Assembly (NCBI GenBank): GCA_016213555.1
Contig: JACRAC010000002.1
Span: 1-33,842, forward strand
Origin: Candidatus Aenigmatarchaeota archaeon
GTDB lineage: Archaea > Aenigmatarchaeota > Aenigmatarchaeia > GW2011-AR5 > JACRAC01
Direction: 5' to 3'
DNA length: 33,842 nt
Part shown: one piece after another, positions 4,616 through 18,506 of the stretch
How the letters are laid out: every line of letters begins with the position of its first letter
Numbering within the stretch: position 1 is the first letter of the stretch
The notes under the pieces: model-generated
What the model saw: the letters and a program-made list of their open reading frames with translations, nothing else
Told to the model about the DNA's origin: nothing
Database searches by the model: none
Made by a program: the position numbers and the translations under genes

Positions 4616-5110
4616 TCACTTTACTAATTTTAATCCTTCTTCTGCTGCTAAGCAGTTTTCTTTTTGTTTTTTGTTTAGCTCTTTTTCAATTGCACTTTTG
4701 ACATGCTTTATCTGTAATTTTGTAAAATATTTAGTAACAGCTCCAGCAATAGGCATGTTTGGAATACCTTTTCCAGTGTTTTTCAATGCTATTTCTGTTG
4801 CATCTATTACATGTAAATTTTTAGATTTTGTAGCTGCTTTTGGCTTTTCCAAGGTGTTTAGAATAAATATGTTAGTTTCTTTCAGGTCTTTTATTGAAAA
4901 AAGTGAAGAATCTAGTATTACAACTAGATCAGGGTTTTTTATAGGACCTTTTTCTAAAACATCTTTGTCTATTCTCACGTAAGCCTTTTTCACACTTCCT
5001 TTTTCACAAAAGTCATTGCTATTAAGACCTGCTAACATTCCTGCTCTTGATAAAGTTCTGGCAAGAGTCTCTACTCCCTGCCCATCATATCCAATTATAC
5101 TTATTTGCAT
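4616..5110 (-). CDS. porG: POR gamma subunit (divergent)
   Basis: G.DGQG, AYVRI, PDLVVILD, IDATEIALK..G..IPN...GA and N..AAEEG motifs. Confidence 0.85.
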   Translation of the reverse strand: MQISIIGYDGQGVETLARTLSRAGMLAGLNSNDFCEKGSVKKAYVRIDKDVLEKGPIKNPDLVVILDSSLFSIKDLKETNIFILNTLEKPKAATKSKNLHVIDATEIALKNTGKGIPNMPIAGAVTKYFTKLQIKHVKSAIEKELNKKQKENCLAAEEGLKLVK

Positions 5111-10255: not shown

Positions 10256-10401
10256 GCTGGGGTAGCCAAGTGGTTACGGCGCTAATTCGTAAACTATATT
10301 TTACGAAGCGTGTGCCTGCTAATAACATTTGCTTTAAAAAAGCAAACTAGCTGTAAGCTAGTTTCCGAAAGGATGCGTGGGTTCGAATCCCACCTCCAGC
10401 G
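10256..10401 (+). tRNA. tRNA-Ser(GCT) with two introns (10285-10313 at about 29/30; 10322-10355 at 37/38)
   Basis: Acceptor GCTGGGG/CTCCAGC with G73, long variable arm, GTTCGAATCC. Removing both BHB introns gives the anticodon arm CTAGC-CT GCT AA-GCTAG. Confidence 0.88.
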
Positions 10402-10409
10402 CTTACCCA

Positions 10410-10476: not shown

Positions 10477-11031
10477 TTGGCGAATTATATGAAAAAGGTA
10501 CATATAACGTATTTTGTGCACGGAACTACTACTGATAATGAGGCTGGCTTGAGTAGTGGATGGAGTGATGTAGGTTTAAGTGACTTAGGAAAGAAACAAA
10601 ACTTAGATCTTAAGGAACTTATCAAAAGAAGCAAGTTTGATATTGTTTTCACAAGCGATCTTAGAAGAGCAAAAGAAACAGCTAACTTTGTATTTAATGG
10701 AACTAAGATTATTGAAGATAAGCGCTTAAGAGAATTAAATTATGGCGTGCTACAAGGTGCTAGAGAAGAAGAGATCGTTTATGAAAAACATATTTCTAAC
10801 AGATTTCCTAATGGAGAATCTCTTAAAGATGTAGAAAAAAGGATGAAAGAATTTTTAGATTATCTGAAGAATAACTATTCTGGAAAACACGTAGCTGTAG
10901 TGGCTCATAAGGCTCCTCAACTTGCTTTGGATGTTTTGCTGAATGGAATGACATGGAATCAAGCTATTGAAAATGATTGGAGACATAAAAAAGCCTGGAA
11001 ACCTGGATGGGATTATTTGTTAGAATGTTAG
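10477..11031 (+). CDS. Histidine phosphatase family protein (likely start 10489)
   Basis: FVHG.T.DN, SDL.RA.ET, LRE.NYG, FPNGES and VVAH motifs. Confidence 0.9.
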   Translation: MANYMKKVHITYFVHGTTTDNEAGLSSGWSDVGLSDLGKKQNLDLKELIKRSKFDIVFTSDLRRAKETANFVFNGTKIIEDKRLRELNYGVLQGAREEEIVYEKHISNRFPNGESLKDVEKRMKEFLDYLKNNYSGKHVAVVAHKAPQLALDVLLNGMTWNQAIENDWRHKKAWKPGWDYLLEC

Positions 11032-11076: not shown

Positions 11077-12657
11077 ATGACATCTAGGTCTAAAAGTTTA
11101 TTTAATACTGCAGATCCTGATATGAGAAAACTTCTTGAGAAAGAGGCAGTGTTGACTGATTTAGGTAATGCTTCTGGACTTGCTTATTGGGATCAAGATG
11201 TAAATATGCCAGAAGGTGGAGAAGATGCAAGAGTAAAACTTATCTCTACTTTGGATACTATACAACATGATCTACAGACAAGAAGATATTTAGATAGGCT
11301 TATAACAAGACTTGAGGGCAAAGTAGATAATGGAGATTTTTCTGAATACGATAGGGCTCTTTTAAGAGAACTTAGAACTGATTATGATTTAGCATCTAAA
11401 CTTCCTAGAAGATTTGTAACTGAACAAAGCAAAGTTAATTCTAAAGCTCAACAAACATGGAAGAGAGCTAAAATGGCTAATGATGGAAAAGGAGATTTTT
11501 CATTATTTGCTTCTGATCTGGCAGCTGTGTTTGATTTAAAAAGAAGAGAGGCAGATTATCTGGGATTTCAAGGACATCCATATAATGCTTTGTTAGATCA
11601 GTATGAACAAGGGTTAACTGTAGAGCAACTAGACACTATTTTTCCTGTATTAGTAGATGCTACAAAAACCATTCTAGATCGTGTAGAAGGTGCTGAAGTA
11701 GATAGAAGTTTTCTTTCTTTAAAATATCCTAGAGGAGTTCAGTGGTCTTTTGCCAGAAGACTGTCTAGATCTTTAGGATTTGATTTTACTAGAGGAAGAC
11801 TAGATAGAGCAGTACACCCATTTACAATAAAGTTTGATCCTACTGATGTAAGAATAACTAATAGAGCAGATCCTAATTATTTGCCTGCTGGAGTATTTGG
11901 AGTTATTCATGAAACAGGACATGCTCTATATGAACAAGGAGTTGATAGAGGACTGTCAGGAACAAGACTTGCTACAGGTACATCTATGGGTATACATGAA
12001 TCTCAATCAAGATTTTGGGAAAACTATGTAGGTAGAAGTAATGAATTTTGGGAATATTGGTTTCCAATGCTTCAGAGAAAATTTCCAAGTCAATTAGGAT
12101 CTGTTAATGTAGATCAGTTTGTTAAAGCGATAAATGCTGTTAGGCCTTCTCCAATTAGAATAGAGGCTGATGAAATAACATATAATATACATGTAGTTAT
12201 TCGTTATGAAATTGAGAGAGATTTATTATCAGGTAAAATACAAACAAAAGATGTTCCAATGATTTGGAACGAGAAAATGAGATCGTATTTAGGAATTGAT
12301 CCTCAAACAGATTCTCAAGGAGCTTTACAAGATGTTCATTGGTCTAGTGGTCTTGTAGGATATTTTCCTTCATATTCTCTTGGAAATATATATGCAGCTC
12401 AGTTTTATAATTCTTTAAGAAATCAGCATCCAGATATTGATAGAAGTATTTCTAAAGGCGAGTATGGTTTTATTAGACAATGGTTGAGGGAAAATATACA
12501 TAGACATGGAAGTGTTTATAGACCAGGAGATTTATCTACGAATGTTACAGGTGAGCAATTAAATCCACAATATTTTGTTGATTATGCTATGAATAAATTT
12601 GGACGGTTGTATGGAATTGATTTAAAAACATCTCAACTTAATCCACTTCATGCCTAG
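11077..12657 (+). CDS. Carboxypeptidase M32 (Taq/Pfu type)
   Basis: HPF, D.RIT, HETGH, HESQSR, IRIEADE, G.LQDVHW and GYFPSY.LG motifs. Confidence 0.96.
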   Translation: MTSRSKSLFNTADPDMRKLLEKEAVLTDLGNASGLAYWDQDVNMPEGGEDARVKLISTLDTIQHDLQTRRYLDRLITRLEGKVDNGDFSEYDRALLRELRTDYDLASKLPRRFVTEQSKVNSKAQQTWKRAKMANDGKGDFSLFASDLAAVFDLKRREADYLGFQGHPYNALLDQYEQGLTVEQLDTIFPVLVDATKTILDRVEGAEVDRSFLSLKYPRGVQWSFARRLSRSLGFDFTRGRLDRAVHPFTIKFDPTDVRITNRADPNYLPAGVFGVIHETGHALYEQGVDRGLSGTRLATGTSMGIHESQSRFWENYVGRSNEFWEYWFPMLQRKFPSQLGSVNVDQFVKAINAVRPSPIRIEADEITYNIHVVIRYEIERDLLSGKIQTKDVPMIWNEKMRSYLGIDPQTDSQGALQDVHWSSGLVGYFPSYSLGNIYAAQFYNSLRNQHPDIDRSISKGEYGFIRQWLRENIHRHGSVYRPGDLSTNVTGEQLNPQYFVDYAMNKFGRLYGIDLKTSQLNPLHA

Positions 12658-12715: not shown

Positions 12716-13585
12716 ATGGGCATTGAAGAAGTTTTTAATGAAAATTTTGTAATACCTTTGGGAAATTACTATACCCCTGTTAATACTATTATTTATGGTT
12801 TAGTATTTGCTTTGGCAGTTTTCGGAGTTTATAAACTTCTCAGAAGAATGAATGTTGATATTGATAGAAATTTTGTAATAGGAATAGTTCCTTATGTTGT
12901 TCTTGGTAGCGTGCTTAGGGTATTGAGGGATGCAAAACTTCTTGATTACTGGTTTTTTGCATCACCGATAATCTATATGCTTTTGTTTGTAGTTGCTACG
13001 ATTACTTTGGTATTTAGCAAACAGCTGGAAAAATTTGCAAAAGCTGCTAAAAAGAAGTCAGGACTTACAGACTTTCTTTCAGATTATCATAGACTTTGGT
13101 GTTTATTAGGAATAATACTAGTTATTGCAGGATTTGTAATACTTTCCACAGTTGGTTACAAAAATTATTATGCAAGCGGTCTTATGTTAGGATTGGCTGC
13201 TATATGGGGAGCCATTCTTTATCTTGCTTATGAAGCTAGAGAAAAATTCGGGGAGAAATATAAATTCTTAAGTGTATTTTCCAAGGAAAACTGCTTGTTA
13301 TTAGGAATACATTTATTTGACGCTTCTACAACATTTGTTGCATTGACCTTCTATCCATATTATGAACAGCATGTGGTTTCTAACTTTGTTATAGGCTTTT
13401 TAGGACCTGCTGGACAATTTGTCCTTAAAATTGCTGTAGTTACTGTTGTATTATGGGCTTTGGACAATTACTTGAAGACAGACAAGGATAGCATTTACAT
13501 GAGAAATTTCATCAAGATAGCAATATTTATCCTAGGATTTGCACCTGGGTTTAGAAACTTCTTGAGATTAGGATTTGGAGTATAA
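12716..13585 (+). CDS. DUF63 family membrane protein
   Basis: Y..VNT..YG, P....G..LRVL.D, H.FDA.TT, Y.EQHV and LG.APG.RN..R...GV motifs. Confidence 0.85.
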   Translation: MGIEEVFNENFVIPLGNYYTPVNTIIYGLVFALAVFGVYKLLRRMNVDIDRNFVIGIVPYVVLGSVLRVLRDAKLLDYWFFASPIIYMLLFVVATITLVFSKQLEKFAKAAKKKSGLTDFLSDYHRLWCLLGIILVIAGFVILSTVGYKNYYASGLMLGLAAIWGAILYLAYEAREKFGEKYKFLSVFSKENCLLLGIHLFDASTTFVALTFYPYYEQHVVSNFVIGFLGPAGQFVLKIAVVTVVLWALDNYLKTDKDSIYMRNFIKIAIFILGFAPGFRNFLRLGFGV

Positions 13586-13720: not shown

Positions 13721-13810
13721 GGGCCGGTGGTCTAGCGGTTATCTTTAAAGAGCGTAAATGACGCCGCCCTTACAAGGCGGATATCGCAGGTTCGATTCCT
13801 GCTCGGCCCA
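13721..13810 (+). tRNA. tRNA-Val(TAC) with a 17-nt D-loop intron (13741-13757)
   Basis: GGGCCGG/TCGGCCC-A acceptor, CCGCC-CT TAC AA-GGCGG anticodon arm, GTTCGATTC. Intron removal restores GTCTAGCGGTTATGAC. Confidence 0.9.
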
Positions 13811-14323
13811 CTTTAAAAATTTTTTATTATGTTTAGAATTATTCGGGGTTACTAGTTTCCACCATCTAATTACGTTTTTACTACCCATGCTATAAATCCT
13901 GTATCTTTTATATATTTTTTTAGTTCTTTTGTCAAAACTTTCATGTTTGAAAATACTATGTTTAAATTCTAAATTTTTTAAAATTTGTGAGATATCTTTT
14001 TTTAGATTGTTACTATTTGTTACTATCTCAATAATTGGATATTTTTTATCTCTTAATCTAAAACAACCGTCAGAATCTATTATACCCCTTAAAAAAGCTA
14101 TTTGAAATTGTTTGCTTGAAAGTATCCATTTAGGTATTCTTATGTTATTTTTTGGAGATTCTTGTACATTCAAAATATCTCTGAAGAAATGAAAAACAGC
14201 TTTTGATCTCAGTCTTATTCTTATACCATTCTTATTTTTTAAGTAATCTAATTTAATGTTATTAAAATTGAACAAATTCTGCTTTCTTTTTATTAGTATA
14301 GACTCAAAATATTCTATATCATC
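13745..14323 (-). pseudogene. C-terminal 192 aa of a LAGLIDADG-family protein separated from its N-terminus by an inversion
   Basis: RIPKWI...AFLRGIIDSDG second LAGLIDADG helix. The frame is open upstream of the ORF-track start up to the breakpoint at 14323-14325. Confidence 0.85.
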
Positions 14324-15248: not shown

Positions 15249-15818
15249 TTATGAAACACTTCTTATAAGATTCTCTAGCTCTTGATGAGTATTTATATAT
15301 AATTTGTTCAGCTCATTAAAATAAACATCATTTAATAAAATCTCTTTATCGTAGCATGTGAGCTTTGGAACGAGTTTTTGGTTTGTTACATCACCTTCTG
15401 GAAAAAAAGCGAGTGTGTTATGTGCAAATCTATTTATTATCTCCCTAATTCTGTCCATATTATCTGCTAAGTCTTTCAAATCCTTTCCCAATAATAAATA
15501 ATGTTCTTTTGTGAGTCTTCTGAAAAGTGATATTTTACTATTAAATGTCATAGGTCTTTCTTTAAGGATAAAATGATCAAAGATCTTTTTGATTTTCTCT
15601 TCATCCCCTGTAATATAGCCTTTAGGGTAAAATAGGTTTTGAATGAGTTGATCTAGAATTATTTCTATTTCTATGCTTATTGCAATTACATTACCTCTTA
15701 TTTCTCTTAATGCTTTCACTTGTAATTGCCAATCTTTAGCCAATTTCTTATCTATGTGAATTGATTGTCCTGGTGATATGGTTATCCAAGAATCTCTAGG
15801 TGCTATTGGGGTTTTCAT
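15249..15818 (-). CDS. HEPN-like (MtlR/Abi-type fold) protein with an altered Rx4H motif
   Basis: Helical pattern RG.VI....IE..LD, TF.SKI, and D.IREIINRFAH where RNxFAH is expected. Confidence 0.55.
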   Translation of the reverse strand: MKTPIAPRDSWITISPGQSIHIDKKLAKDWQLQVKALREIRGNVIAISIEIEIILDQLIQNLFYPKGYITGDEEKIKKIFDHFILKERPMTFNSKISLFRRLTKEHYLLLGKDLKDLADNMDRIREIINRFAHNTLAFFPEGDVTNQKLVPKLTCYDKEILLNDVYFNELNKLYINTHQELENLIRSVS

Positions 15819-15880
15819 GTTAATTTTATGGATATTAAAAATTTAATATAGGTTACTTTATTGGTGATAGATATTACTAT

Positions 15881-15968
15881 TATACTATGTGACATAACAA
15901 ACTAGAATATTATTATGACACTACTATATACAGAATGTATAATTATGTTCTAAATTGTTATACATTCT
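15881..15968 (+). repeat. Double-palindrome element, copy B
   Basis: Imperfect IR 15881-15897/15913-15928 and perfect IR AGAATGTATAA-N15-TTATACATTCT (15932-15968); aligns with the reverse complement of 17848-17933. Confidence 0.8.
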
Positions 15969-16081
15969 ACTATAATTCTCTATTGAAGATTGAAAGATAT
16001 TTTATGGATAACAAGAAGTTTATCATAGGAGGGTAATTTGAAACTTCGAGAATAATATATTAAAGCTAAAAACCCCTAAAA

Positions 16082-16327
16082 CTAAGGGTAATCTATACAA
16101 GATTCTGTATTATCGTTAGTACATCTTTTTATTCTCTTATATGTGTAATACCAACCTCTAAAGAATCCATATTTTTCCACGGCTTTGATACCATAGTTTG
16201 AACAAGATGAGTAGAAACGACATATAATCCCCTTTCTTTTATTATGGTTTCTACCAAATTTTCCATGCCATATTTTCTTTATGAAAAATATAGATAAGAA
16301 TCCTAGAATGCTATAATTTCTTTTCAT
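16082..16327 (-). CDS. YidD-like (DUF37, membrane insertion efficiency factor) protein
   Basis: CRFYSSCSNY...AVEKYG...G......RI.RC...D.P motif. Confidence 0.85.
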   Translation of the reverse strand: MKRNYSILGFLSIFFIKKIWHGKFGRNHNKRKGIICRFYSSCSNYGIKAVEKYGFFRGWYYTYKRIKRCTNDNTESCIDYP

Positions 16328-16655
16328 AATATAAGGGTTCTTCTTTATAATCAGCTGAACTGCATTTTGGACATTTTTTAATCTTATCCAATTCTGTTTG
16401 ATTTGCCTCTACATTTCTTTTTGCTTGATATGCAGCTCCTTTATCACCACAGCAATTTCCAATAACGCCCCAGTTATTAACATTTATATTATCTTTGATT
16501 TTTTTCTCCCTATTTGCCAAAGAATGCCATATTTTTTTACATTGGTTACAAGTTCTCTTAAACTCTGCCACGTGTTTTTTTGGATCAAAGTTATCTTTTG
16601 TTATTTTCATTTTATTCATATCAACACCTATAACAATAACATGTATCTGCACCAT
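16311..16655 (-). CDS. Zinc-ribbon protein (likely start at MNKMK, about 16619)
   Basis: RTCNQCKKIW...KCPKCSS, two CxxC pairs. Confidence 0.65.
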   Translation of the reverse strand: MVQIHVIVIGVDMNKMKITKDNFDPKKHVAEFKRTCNQCKKIWHSLANREKKIKDNINVNNWGVIGNCCGDKGAAYQAKRNVEANQTELDKIKKCPKCSSADYKEEPLYYEKKL

Positions 16656-17682
16656 CTACTGTACTATGATGTTCTAATCTAAATCCCCATGTTGTTATTT
16701 CATATGATGTATTAGATTTAATTGCTTCATCAGATTTGACAAAACTTTTATTTTCTAAATGTCTTTCTTTACACATAGATTCACAAATTGTTTCTAATTC
16801 ACATTTAGACCTAGATAATCCCTTAGACTCACACCAATCAGTAACCTCACTCTCATAAATATATGGATCATAATAAGTATAGTATTCCTTAACCATATCG
16901 TCATAACAGTTTAATGAGTATAGATTATATCCATCAGATGTAGATTCTTTTTTAGTTGTTAGTGTATCCCCAGAAGGAGCAAAAGGTTCTTTCTTTATTA
17001 GAATTGGTTTTTCTTGTATTTCAGGAAATATAATTGGTTTGAATGTTATATTAATGTAGTTTGGAGAGGATTTATTATAATTATACACCAAGGCAATTCT
17101 CAATACTAATTTATTTGAATCGCTACATCTTATCTTCATGTCAGATGTATAGCTTGTGCCACCGCCTGTAAAAGTAACTGTCCTTCCTGAAGGTATATCT
17201 TTATCAGCATAATCTCTAAGTAAATAATCTGGATTTAATGTACAGTTTCCAAATGAGTAATGTAACCCAGACATACAATAACTACAACTTCCATAAGACC
17301 CTCCTATATAGTAAAGTGTAGAATTTCTTTCATTAGTTATATAAAATTCAAAATAACTTGTTTTCCATCCTTTCCATGGGTTATCTTTATCAATAAGAGA
17401 AAAGCTATTCTGTACTAATGTAACATTTAATCCATCTTGTAAAATAGACTGAGAATATATGGTAAGATCATTATTAGCTGCTTGTTCTGTTAAAGAATCT
17501 GATTTTTGTCCAGTTTCTATATTAGATTTCTCTACTTTATTTGTTTCAGAAGAAACAGATGTATCTTTTGTTTTGGTATCAATATTCGAAGTGTTCTTTT
17601 CATTCTGCCCTATACATCCACTAACAACTACTACTGTAGCTAAAAGAATAATTATTGAAATACTTTTCCACTTTCCATACAT
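16621..17682 (-). CDS. Secreted or lipid-anchored Cys-containing surface protein
   Basis: Signal peptide with VVSGC lipobox-like motif, Ser/Thr/Lys linker, beta-rich domain and a Cys-rich C-terminus. Confidence 0.75.
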   Translation of the reverse strand: MYGKWKSISIIILLATVVVVSGCIGQNEKNTSNIDTKTKDTSVSSETNKVEKSNIETGQKSDSLTEQAANNDLTIYSQSILQDGLNVTLVQNSFSLIDKDNPWKGWKTSYFEFYITNERNSTLYYIGGSYGSCSYCMSGLHYSFGNCTLNPDYLLRDYADKDIPSGRTVTFTGGGTSYTSDMKIRCSDSNKLVLRIALVYNYNKSSPNYINITFKPIIFPEIQEKPILIKKEPFAPSGDTLTTKKESTSDGYNLYSLNCYDDMVKEYYTYYDPYIYESEVTDWCESKGLSRSKCELETICESMCKERHLENKSFVKSDEAIKSNTSYEITTWGFRLEHHSTVDGADTCYCYRC

Positions 17683-17683
17683 A

Positions 17684-17831
17684 TGCTCTGTGCGGGATTT
17701 GAACCCACGTCACAGCCTATCTTTATATCACTGCCATTCAAATGAATGACTCTAACCTTTCGGTATTCGAAAGGGCCGTATCCTTTTCCGTAAACTTTTG
17801 AAAAGTCTTGACCGGACTAGACGAACAGAGC
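17684..17831 (-). tRNA. tRNA-Glu(TTC) with two introns (17786-17809 in the D-loop; 17719-17767 at 37/38)
   Basis: Spliced product GCTCTGTTCGTCTAGTCCGGTCAAGGATACGGCCCTTTCGAGGCTGTGACGTGGGTTCAAATCCCGCACAGAGCA. The canonical intron has a CTTT/AAAG BHB helix. Confidence 0.9.
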
Positions 17832-17847
17832 TTATTAGTAATACAAT

Positions 17848-17933
17848 AGAAGACATTACTATTTAGAACATATTAATGTCTTCTGTGTATAGTATTTGAC
17901 ATAATAATATTCATAGTTATGTCAAATACTATA
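17848..17933 (-). repeat. Double-palindrome element, copy A
   Basis: Perfect IRs AGAAGACATTA-N15-TAATGTCTTCT (17848-17884) and TATAGTATTTGACATAA-N12-TTATGTCAAATACTATA (17888-17933). Confidence 0.85.
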
Positions 17934-17972
17934 GAATAAAGAAAACTTTAAAAGTAGAATTTTTCCAAGCTA

Positions 17973-18506
17973 TTAGACTATCAGAGCTAGCAGTCCTATG
18001 ACATTTAGGAGATAGATGAATGCCAGACTGAAGATGAAGTTTATGAACATGAATACTGCACCAAATCCGCCGGATATAACTGCCTGTACTATTGCAGCTG
18101 TTATTTGCTTGAATAAAAGAGCTATGATCACTGCTATTAAGAATCCGAACTGAGCTGGGAGAAATCCTATCATTGCTGAGGCTATAGCAATTGCTACAAA
18201 GTTAATATTTGGATAGATTGGTATTACATCTTTTGCTGATAGACTTGACAAAATTGTTATCAAAAGAGGCATTAACAGAAGAGAATAGAAAAACCCAAAT
18301 ATAGGGCCTAGTGCTATACCTGCTATAAGACCTGAAAGCGTAACCAGCTCAAATCCTATTGTTCTTATTGTAAGAATATAGTTTGCAATTATCATTGCAT
18401 CTATCCAGAGCAGCAAGTAAACTAAAAATATCAATGGATTAATTAAATATGCTAGTAGTGATCCAACTATTAATGTTAATGCGTAAACTGTTAGTTTGTA
18501 ACTCAT
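17973..18506 (-). CDS. Polytopic membrane protein of unknown function
   Basis: About six hydrophobic helices; G...GP..G pattern loosely like ECF S-components. Confidence 0.65.
   Translation of the reverse strand: MSYKLTVYALTLIVGSLLAYLINPLIFLVYLLLWIDAMIIANYILTIRTIGFELVTLSGLIAGIALGPIFGFFYSLLLMPLLITILSSLSAKDVIPIYPNINFVAIAIASAMIGFLPAQFGFLIAVIIALLFKQITAAIVQAVISGGFGAVFMFINFIFSLAFIYLLNVIGLLALIV

What the first reader, a model, noticed from the sequence alone, without database searches (positions are those of the whole stretch)
15881..17933. Inversely oriented double-palindrome elements with compensatory changes bracket a tRNA-Glu cargo cassette
Seen: 15881-15968 aligns with the reverse complement of 17848-17933, and each copy is two adjacent palindromic units. 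In one unit the 11-bp arms differ between copies (AGAATGTATAA versus AGAAGACATTA) yet each remains a perfect inverted repeat, while the 15-nt spacer is 13/15 identical (TTATGTTCTAAATTG versus ATATGTTCTAAATAG). The second unit has a related spacer in opposite orientation (TAATATTC..), so there are four related sites. The arm TTATGTCAAAT differs by one base from the XerD arm of E. coli dif (TTATGTTAAAT), but the spacer is 12-15 rather than 6 nt. Between the copies lie tRNA-Glu, a surface protein, a zinc-ribbon and a YidD-like gene. Inference: structure-selected recombination sites of a cassette capture or inversion system (pdif- or attC-like), a MITE, or a small structured RNA.
Basis: partly seen in the sequence, partly recalled or inferred. 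Interest (0 to 1): 0.78.

Follow-up and report, generated by a model that had tools for sequence, protein, structure and literature searches.

The report
Dispersed hairpin repeats, not a cassette
The two inverted double-hairpin sequences are real, but they are two copies of a small, probably mobile, repeated DNA element scattered through this tiny archaeon's genome and its relatives, not the ends of a gene-cassette system.

Summary
Observation confirmed. 15878-15970 (+) and 17846-17936 (-) are inverted copies of a two-hairpin element. Their alignment scores 74, against 20.6 +/- 3.8 for shuffles, and the stems differ with full compensation. They are not a matched pair and are not special to this locus. 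This 0.88-Mb genome holds unit A at 11 loci and unit B at 6. Unit A matches in 29 of 61 related genomes and unit B in 10 of 61, with up to 57 matches per genome. In a phylum-wide sample both are nearly confined to one order (8 and 2 of 151). Copies within one genome are 92-100% identical while their flanks are unrelated. Units are bounded by TA, occur singly, paired or with extra hairpin modules between them, and some have decayed. The left copy's nearest relatives lie elsewhere (0.90, 0.89); the right copy ranks 11th (0.78). I found no recombinase nearby and no inversion joint, and the genes inside and outside the "cassette" are equally orphan. Best reading: miniature non-autonomous palindromic mobile repeats (MITE / REP-BIME-like) whose mobiliser is unidentified. 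The scan has found this kind before in other Aenigmarchaeota genomes. I found no paper describing it. It is a new member of a known kind, of modest interest.

The parts
15878..15928 (+). Unit A, left copy. This hairpin module has decayed and its stem is imperfect.
   Evidence: Model R2 scores it 64.3 bits. The fold shows only a partial stem.
15929..15970 (+). Unit B, left copy. It has a perfect 11-bp stem and a 15-nt loop, with TA before it and TATA after it.
   Evidence: Model R1 scores it 68.4 bits. Pair table.
17846..17887 (-). Unit B, right copy. Its stem belongs to the other subfamily. It ends 14 nt upstream of tRNA-Glu.
   Evidence: Model R1 scores it 64.5 bits.
17888..17936 (-). Unit A, right copy, a perfect 17-bp hairpin. 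It starts about 37 nt after the stop of ORF 17973-18506.
   Evidence: Model R2 scores it 60.4 bits. Fold.
17684..17831 (-). Bystander: tRNA-Glu(UUC) with a 24-nt D-arm intron and a 49-nt anticodon-loop intron.
   Evidence: ARAGORN with introns allowed and after removing the stretch absent from the G001 orthologue. Plain ARAGORN and Rfam at gathering score miss it.
16082..17682 (-). Bystanders: three ORFs between the copies. They are a YidD-like ORF of 81 aa, a 114-aa protein with two CxxC pairs, and a 353-aa secreted or lipoprotein-like orphan.
   Evidence: The 353-aa protein has no homologue in 20 relatives.

Best explanation
The two elements are independent members of a family of miniature, gene-less, palindromic repeats of the MITE / REP-BIME kind. 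The family is modular.

- Unit A is about 48 nt and unit B about 42 nt. Each is a hairpin whose two arms are inverted copies of one another.
- Every unit is bounded by TA.
- A and B usually sit head to tail as a composite of about 90 nt. The composite's outer arms again form terminal inverted repeats.
- Other small hairpin modules can sit at the TA between A and B.

Inferred, not shown: the modules are copied to new TA or TATA sites in intergenic DNA by an enzyme supplied in trans, which recognises the folded hairpin or cruciform. This would explain why the arms stay complementary while their sequence drifts. After insertion, single copies decay. The tRNA-Glu segment merely lies between two such insertions.

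The mobiliser is not identified. The candidates are an IS630/Tc1-type DDE transposase and a Y1 (HUH) transposase.
For: Shown:
- Dispersal in the own genome. Unit B occurs 6 times at 62 bits or more, and unit A at 11 distinct loci at 43 bits or more, across 10 contigs.
- Location. Of the 10 well-supported loci examined, 9 overlap no ORF of 70 aa or more. The tenth overlaps an uncertain ORF start by 15 nt. C23 and C61 are likewise between genes.
- Spread in relatives. Unit A matches in 29 of 61 genomes and unit B in 10 of 61, G000 included. In a phylum-wide sample the figures are 8 and 2 of 151.
- Sharp edges. Copies within one genome are 92-100% identical over 94-150 nt, while their 100-nt flanks are at background, 0.27-0.66.
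- No shared neighbours. Among 222 neighbouring ORFs, only 3 cross-locus homologue pairs were found.
- Boundaries. 40 of 43 unit B hits are preceded by TA and 36 of 43 are followed by TATA.
- Modularity. There are A-only, B-only, A+B and A+insert+B forms, a B with an internal deletion (C23), and truncated A copies in G001.
- Covariation. In unit A, 95.3% of cells pair against 87.9% in shuffles, and 6 of 15 pairs change on both sides (0 of 500 shuffles reach the score). In unit B, 4 of 11 stem pairs are compensated and none is broken.
- Decay. The left unit A and the degenerate copies on C53, C45 and C62 have degraded.
- Not a pair. The left and right copies are only 0.78 alike.

Leads on the enzyme:
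- The IS630-like elements of G001 and G002 begin with the same five bases as unit A.
- By my tally, DDE_3 occurs in 7 of 29 unit-A-positive genomes and 1 of 32 negative ones.
- By my tally, Y1_Tnp occurs in 14 of 29 positive genomes and 5 of 32 negative ones.
Against: - No autonomous partner was found. G000 (87% complete) has no Y1_Tnp and no DDE_3 hit.
- G025, G031 and G038, assemblies of 2-10 contigs, have 8-12 unit A matches and neither transposase.
- 0 of 8 Y1 genes in 4 genomes have a unit or a similar hairpin within 1.5 kb.
- The full IS630-like copies of G001 carry no unit at their ends.
- I have no clean filled-versus-empty site. G001 lacks the element upstream of tRNA-Glu, but synteny there is scrambled.
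- TA duplication is seen in only 1 of 3 insert types.
- The elements are 75-92% identical between genomes whose orthologous proteins are only about 63-66% identical and whose other DNA does not match by blastn. This could also mean selection for a host function.
- One intergenic site is occupied in both G000 (C9) and G001 (C84), with different, compensated stems.
- The co-occurrence tallies ignore relatedness and assembly quality.
Confidence: 0.72

Rival explanations
1. The hairpin modules are kept by the host for a function at the DNA or RNA level. They could be portable TATA-box promoters, insulators, terminator or mRNA-end hairpins, or binding sites for a chromatin protein. On this view they are domesticated repeats, as bacterial BIMEs are.
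For: - They are far better conserved than the surrounding genes between genomes.
- Their stems covary.
- They persist in near-closed genomes without Y1 or IS630-type transposases.
- One syntenic site is occupied in both G000 and G001.
- Both ends of a composite read outward as TATA.
- Three own copies start 37-46 nt after a stop codon and point towards the next gene or tRNA.
Against: - Orientation towards the neighbouring genes is mixed: 4 sense and 2 antisense among the own composites.
- Single copies decay.
- Distribution among relatives is patchy, 29 of 61.
- G001 expresses its tRNA-Glu locus without an upstream element.
- No conserved flank lies beyond the TATA.
- Copy number ranges from 1 to 57 matches per genome.
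Confidence: 0.13
2. The composites are genes for a small structured RNA made of two to four hairpins and present in several copies.
For: The hairpins are stable (z -6 to -9 for three of the four composites folded; the left window copy only -2.1). They show compensatory changes. The loops of A and B share a motif in opposite orientation, which would allow a few loop-loop pairs.
Against: - No Rfam family matches, even at E up to 5.
- No conserved promoter or terminator lies outside the element.
- Stems pair equally on both strands, and there are almost no wobble-only positions.
- The loop variants of A and B do not co-vary between copies (my reading).
- Units occur singly, truncated and nested.
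Confidence: 0.08
3. The two inverted copies are sites of a site-specific recombination system (Xer/pdif-like, attC-like or an invertase) that captures or flips the tRNA-Glu segment.
For: They lie in inverted orientation 1.9 kb apart around strain-specific genes. Structure-selected palindromes recall attC. tRNA-Glu has the opposite orientation relative to a conserved neighbour in G001.
Against: - The copies are only 0.78 alike and belong to different subfamilies.
- The same units lie at 9 further own loci that show no such pairing.
- The tyrosine recombinase genes are on contigs C26 and C1, which carry no units.
- No inversion or excision joint appears in contigs of 3 runs. This is weak evidence, since contigs drop rare forms.
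- The genes outside the pair are equally orphan.
- Synteny with G001 is scrambled far beyond the pair.
Confidence: 0.03

Closest known systems
Prokaryotic MITEs, especially TA-targeting ones derived from IS630/Tc1-mariner elements. Archaeal MITEs are censused in PMC11602168 (passages read). Sulfolobus SM1 and Neisseria Correia elements are recalled from memory, not from any call.
   Same: They are small and non-coding with terminal inverted repeats. They occur as many near-identical copies in intergenic DNA, are bounded by TA, nest into each other, and carry no transposase of their own. The first bases of the ends are shared with IS630-like elements of the same genus. According to PMC3119063 (passages read), that is how MITEs are usually tied to their transposon.
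   Different: No partner transposon with matching ends was found. The inverted repeats make up almost the whole unit, and they covary instead of keeping one binding sequence. Units are combined as modules.
Bacterial REP / BIME / REPIN elements with RAYT transposases. I saw the abstracts in the listing for PMC2817692, PMC3116915 and PMC3733652, and for PMC3733652 also passages from its reference list only.
   Same: They are short extragenic palindromes, often as inverted doublets, assembled into mosaics with other motifs, and they persist in a lineage. Read on the opposite strand, the outer 3' foot of unit B starts with the four bases of the GTAG tag.
   Different: These are AT-rich rather than GC-rich. 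They number tens of copies rather than hundreds. The tag-like bases lie on both feet. No Y1 gene is flanked by units (0 of 8). The host is an archaeon. In the papers listed, archaea appear only in passing; I checked this in PMC3733652.
Haloquadratum walsbyi transposase-free repeats: SMRs and PATEs (PMC3119063, passages read).
   Same: This is an archaeal precedent for 52-110-bp gene-less mobile repeats with prominent inverted repeats or near-terminal palindromes. They insert into one another, and for the SMRs the mobilisation is unknown.
   Different: There is no sequence relation. SMRs and PATEs are described as making no target duplication. PATE palindromes match the ends of IS605-type elements in the same genomes, which I did not find here.

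Membership tests
MITE | Short and non-coding | tested here: met
   Elements are 88-150 nt with no ORF.
MITE | Terminal inverted repeats | tested here: met
   The arms of each unit pair over 11-17 bp. The outer arms of the A+B composite are related (my reading).
MITE | Several near-identical copies at unrelated sites | tested here: met
   Elements are 92-100% identical while flanks are at background. 222 neighbouring ORFs gave 3 homologue pairs.
MITE | Target-site duplication | tested here: inconclusive
   TA precedes 40 of 43 unit B hits and TATA follows 36 of 43. An extra TA appears beside only 1 of 3 insert types. No empty site is available.
MITE | Ends match an autonomous transposon in the same or a related genome | tested here: inconclusive
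   Only the first five bases are shared with the IS630-like ends in G001 and G002. The full IS copies carry no unit. G000 has no DDE_3 or Y1 hit.
REP/REPIN-RAYT | A single-copy RAYT (Y1) gene flanked by the repeats | tested here: not met
   0 of 8 Y1 genes in G001, G002, G045 and G047 have units or similar hairpins within 1.5 kb. G000 has no Y1 gene.
REP/REPIN-RAYT | Very high copy number (over 100) of a GC-rich tagged palindrome | tested here: not met
   The own genome has 11 unit A loci and 6 unit B loci. The most in a relative is 57 matches, counting both strands. GC of the units is 0.21-0.35.
IS200/IS605-derived PATE | Palindromes like those at the ends of IS605-type elements of the same genomes | tested here: not met
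   No match of 13 bits or more beside the Y1 genes. Their hairpins differ.
Integron attC / cassette array | Same-orientation array of cassettes, each ending in a site, next to an integrase | tested here: not met
   Units lie singly on 10 contigs in both orientations. The tyrosine recombinases are on C26 and C1 only.
Xer dif / pdif site | Two conserved 11-bp arms around a spacer of about 6 bp (feature recalled, not from a call) | tested here: not met
   Spacers are 12-21 nt, and the arms differ between copies with compensation.
Known RNA family (Rfam 15) | Match to a curated covariance model | tested here: not met
   Nothing reached gathering score on the elements. At E up to 5 there were only chance-level miRNA-type hits of 18-21 bits.

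The most novel reading that the evidence does not exclude
The family is not ordinary transposase-driven junk. It would be a hairpin-structured element that spreads or is maintained without any recognisable transposase. It persists with 8-18 matches in genomes that have neither a Y1 nor an IS630-type enzyme. It is far better conserved than the genes around it across families of one archaeal order. The host would use it, for example as a portable outward-facing TATA promoter or as a boundary element in these minimal genomes.
Probability: 0.12. Interest if true: 0.65.

Novelty: new member of a known kind. Interest (0 to 1): 0.3.

Why it matters
The finding removes a tempting but wrong reading, a cassette capture or inversion system around a tRNA gene. 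It also adds one more genome to a picture that this scan has met repeatedly. Aenigmarchaeota, despite genomes under 1 Mb, carry a family of modular TA-bounded hairpin repeats. I found no description of this family in the papers I could search.

The open question of real interest is what copies these elements, given that they keep perfectly compensated stems and are shared between families. Two covariance models (R1 and R2) now exist with which to pursue that question.

Tried and rejected
- **Expression.** No RNA holder is listed for the stretch, so expression is untested.
- **Laying contigs of 3 DNA runs of one study.** No joint appears at the elements. The single joint (17714 to 17807; one contig, depth 6, with 19 other letters) lies inside the tRNA gene and looks like another organism's intron-poor tRNA. 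Runs X2 and X3 leave parts uncovered.
- **Known RNA families and mobile records.** Rfam gave nothing. Distant blastn of the left element against phage and plasmid records gave no match.
- **Kissing-loop idea.** The loops of A and B share a motif in opposite orientation, but the loop variants in G045, G047 and G001 do not co-vary. I dropped the idea.
- **RAYT or IS605 partner.** 0 of 8 Y1 loci carry units.
- **IS630 partner.** Model R1 found nothing at the two full G001 copies. In G002 the IS copies abut units on C36 and C98, which looks like insertion next to or into a unit rather than shared ends.
- **Recurrent neighbour gene as a 'reader'.** None was found.
- **Orthologous empty site for the window pair.** The flanking ORFs 15249-15818 and 17973-18506 have no homologue in 5 family-level relatives. 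The 353-aa ORF has none in 20 relatives.
- **tRNA targeting.** 3 of 43 unit B hits lie just upstream of a predicted tRNA, which is not clearly more than chance.
- **Wide scan of the public genome collection.** No collection-wide search for a partner transposon was therefore made.
- **Earlier findings by sequence.** Searching with the window's own element found nothing.

Full report
**What is there**

The window is contig C10 of a 0.88-Mb assembly of 62 contigs with 31% GC. Earlier notes of this scan call the organism an Aenigmarchaeota (DPANN) archaeon. I did not test that label. The small genome and the many intron-bearing tRNA predictions (18 of 25) fit an archaeon of that kind.

The left stretch (15878-15970, +) and the right stretch (17846-17936, -) align at 84% column identity. 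The alignment scores 74, against 20.6 +/- 3.8 (maximum 39) for 2000 shuffles.

Each stretch is unit A followed by unit B. Unit B has an 11-bp stem in both copies, with 4 differences that are all compensated, and a loop identical at 13 of 15 positions. The right unit A is a perfect 17-bp hairpin. The left one has decayed.

**It is a family, not a pair**

A covariance model of unit B (R1) finds 6 strong copies in the own genome. A model of unit A (R2, built from 25 copies) finds 11 distinct loci.

- Six loci are A+B composites: C8, C39, C22, C42 and the two in the window.
- C23 has an A followed by a B with its middle deleted.
- C61 breaks at the contig end inside the repeat.
- C9, C19 and C29 have A with other modules.

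The well-supported copies lie between genes.

Among 61 related genomes (G000 included), unit B matches in 10 and unit A in 29, with up to 57 matches in G001. In an even sample of 151 genomes of the phylum, the figures are 2 and 8, nearly all in the same order.

**Anatomy**

Across 43 unit B hits from 11 genomes, 40 are preceded by TA and 36 are followed by TATA. Beyond that the flanks are unrelated.

Unit A begins and ends with the same five bases in mirror image. In one subfamily it carries a single bulged T.

Between A and B, at the TA, some copies carry about 55 nt made of two small hairpins. Three different versions of this insert exist: G000 C39 and G001 C74; several G047 copies; and G046 C62. 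The same kind of paired mini-hairpin module also occurs on its own beside units. Only the G046 case shows an extra TA, as a target duplication would give.

Unit B comes in two stem subfamilies. G001 holds both, and one of them is nearly identical to the copies in genomes of another family (G009, G045-G047).

Stems are always paired:
- In unit A, 95.3% of cells pair against 87.9% in shuffles. Six of 15 pairs change on both sides, and 0 of 500 shuffles reach the covariation score.
- In unit B, 4 of 11 stem pairs are compensated and none is broken.

**Signs of copying**

Within G047 and G001, copies are 92-100% identical over 94-150 nt, while the 100 nt on either side are at background.

Of 222 ORFs next to elements in different places, only 3 pairs are homologous.

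A 4.5-kb stretch around the finding matches the same-genus genomes only at the repeat units (75-92% identity) and at the tRNA. Orthologous proteins are about 63-66% identical.

This sharpness and sharing are what dispersed mobile repeats give. Strong conservation could also mean a function, and I keep that as the main rival.

**The 'cassette'**

- The left copy's closest relatives are a G001 copy (0.90) and the own C8 copy (0.89). The right copy ranks 11th (0.78). Its own closest relatives are two G001 copies (0.82) and C22 (0.81).
- G001 has tRNA-Glu, lacking the first intron, with no element upstream.
- The 353-aa ORF inside the pair has no homologue in 20 relatives. The two ORFs just outside have none in 5 relatives either. 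The pair therefore does not delimit the variable region.
- The two tyrosine recombinase genes are on other contigs that carry no units.
- Contigs of three DNA runs of one study follow the window's arrangement and show no joint at the elements. This is weak evidence, because contigs drop rare forms.

**Who moves them**

This is unresolved.

- *Presence in G000.* It has no Y1_Tnp and no DDE_3 hit.
- *Co-occurrence across the 61 genomes.* Y1_Tnp is in 14 of 29 unit-A-positive genomes and 5 of 32 negative ones. DDE_3 is in 7 of 29 and 1 of 32. These are my tallies, and relatedness and assembly quality are not controlled.
- *Adjacency.* No unit lies within 1.5 kb of 8 Y1 genes.
- *IS630-like elements.* Those of G001 and G002 start with the same five bases as unit A, after a TA, but are otherwise different. 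In G002, IS copies abut units.
- *Persistence without either enzyme.* G025, G031 and G038, assemblies of 2-10 contigs, have 8-12 matches and neither enzyme.

**Comparison with what is known, and novelty**

The family behaves like MITEs and like REP/BIME mosaics. Its archaeal precedent is the set of transposase-free SMR and PATE repeats of Haloquadratum (PMC3119063, passages). A census reports MITEs at high density in some DPANN genomes (PMC11602168, passages). Its sequence lists are in supplements that I could not open.

My searches found no paper on this family.

This scan, however, has met the same kind in other Aenigmarchaeota genomes. The notes are e1-2772995, e1-695080 (which shares words with the G047 four-hairpin form), e1-2646513, e1-3388647 and e1-1065503. 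My tests agree with those notes on three points: TA boundaries, nesting, and the lack of an identified transposase.

**Verdict**

The cassette reading is not supported. The element is a new member of a known kind.

Noticed in passing
window 17684-17831 (-): tRNA-Glu(UUC) has two introns. A 24-nt intron in the D arm is absent from the G001 orthologue, and a 49-nt intron follows the anticodon loop. Plain ARAGORN and Rfam at gathering score miss the gene.
   Followed up: yes
whole genome G000; window 10256-10402: With introns allowed, 18 of 25 ARAGORN tRNA predictions carry introns of 15-109 nt. Several of the type calls (Pyl, Stop, Met for the Glu gene) are unreliable. Earlier notes of the scan say that hairpin modules of this kind also sit in tRNA introns of related genomes. 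I did not test that.
   Followed up: no
window 13745-14275 (-) and 13721-13811 (+): A LAGLIDADG homing-endonuclease-like ORF (PF14528, E 4e-11) overlaps the tRNA-Leu(GAG) gene on the opposite strand.
   Followed up: no
window 16082-16327 (-): An archaeal genome carries a YidD-like ORF (PF01809). From recall, that family is mostly bacterial.
   Followed up: no
G000 C39:10546-10599; C29 about 4940-4992; G001 loci L066, L068, L073: There is a second repeat module: two mini-hairpins joined by a 6-nt palindromic centre. It is found between A and B and also on its own beside units.
   Followed up: partly
L039 (G001:C84) 1411-1432 and 1594-1617: A 20-nt direct repeat flanks a segment of about 160 nt that holds an A+B composite. 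The same intergenic site in G000 (C9:8730-9022) holds an A unit with a different stem and what looks like a decayed B.
   Followed up: partly
G002:C36:1-290, C68:1-250, C98:100-185: IS630-like (DDE_3) copies sit at contig ends, and their termini abut unit B (C36) or an inverted unit A (C98). It looks as if the IS inserted at the TA-rich junction of a composite.
   Followed up: partly
window 11077-12657 (+): A 526-aa ORF lies between two genes (10477-11031 and 12716-13585) whose homologues are adjacent in G001 (L052 168-1558). This may be an insertion in G000.
   Followed up: no
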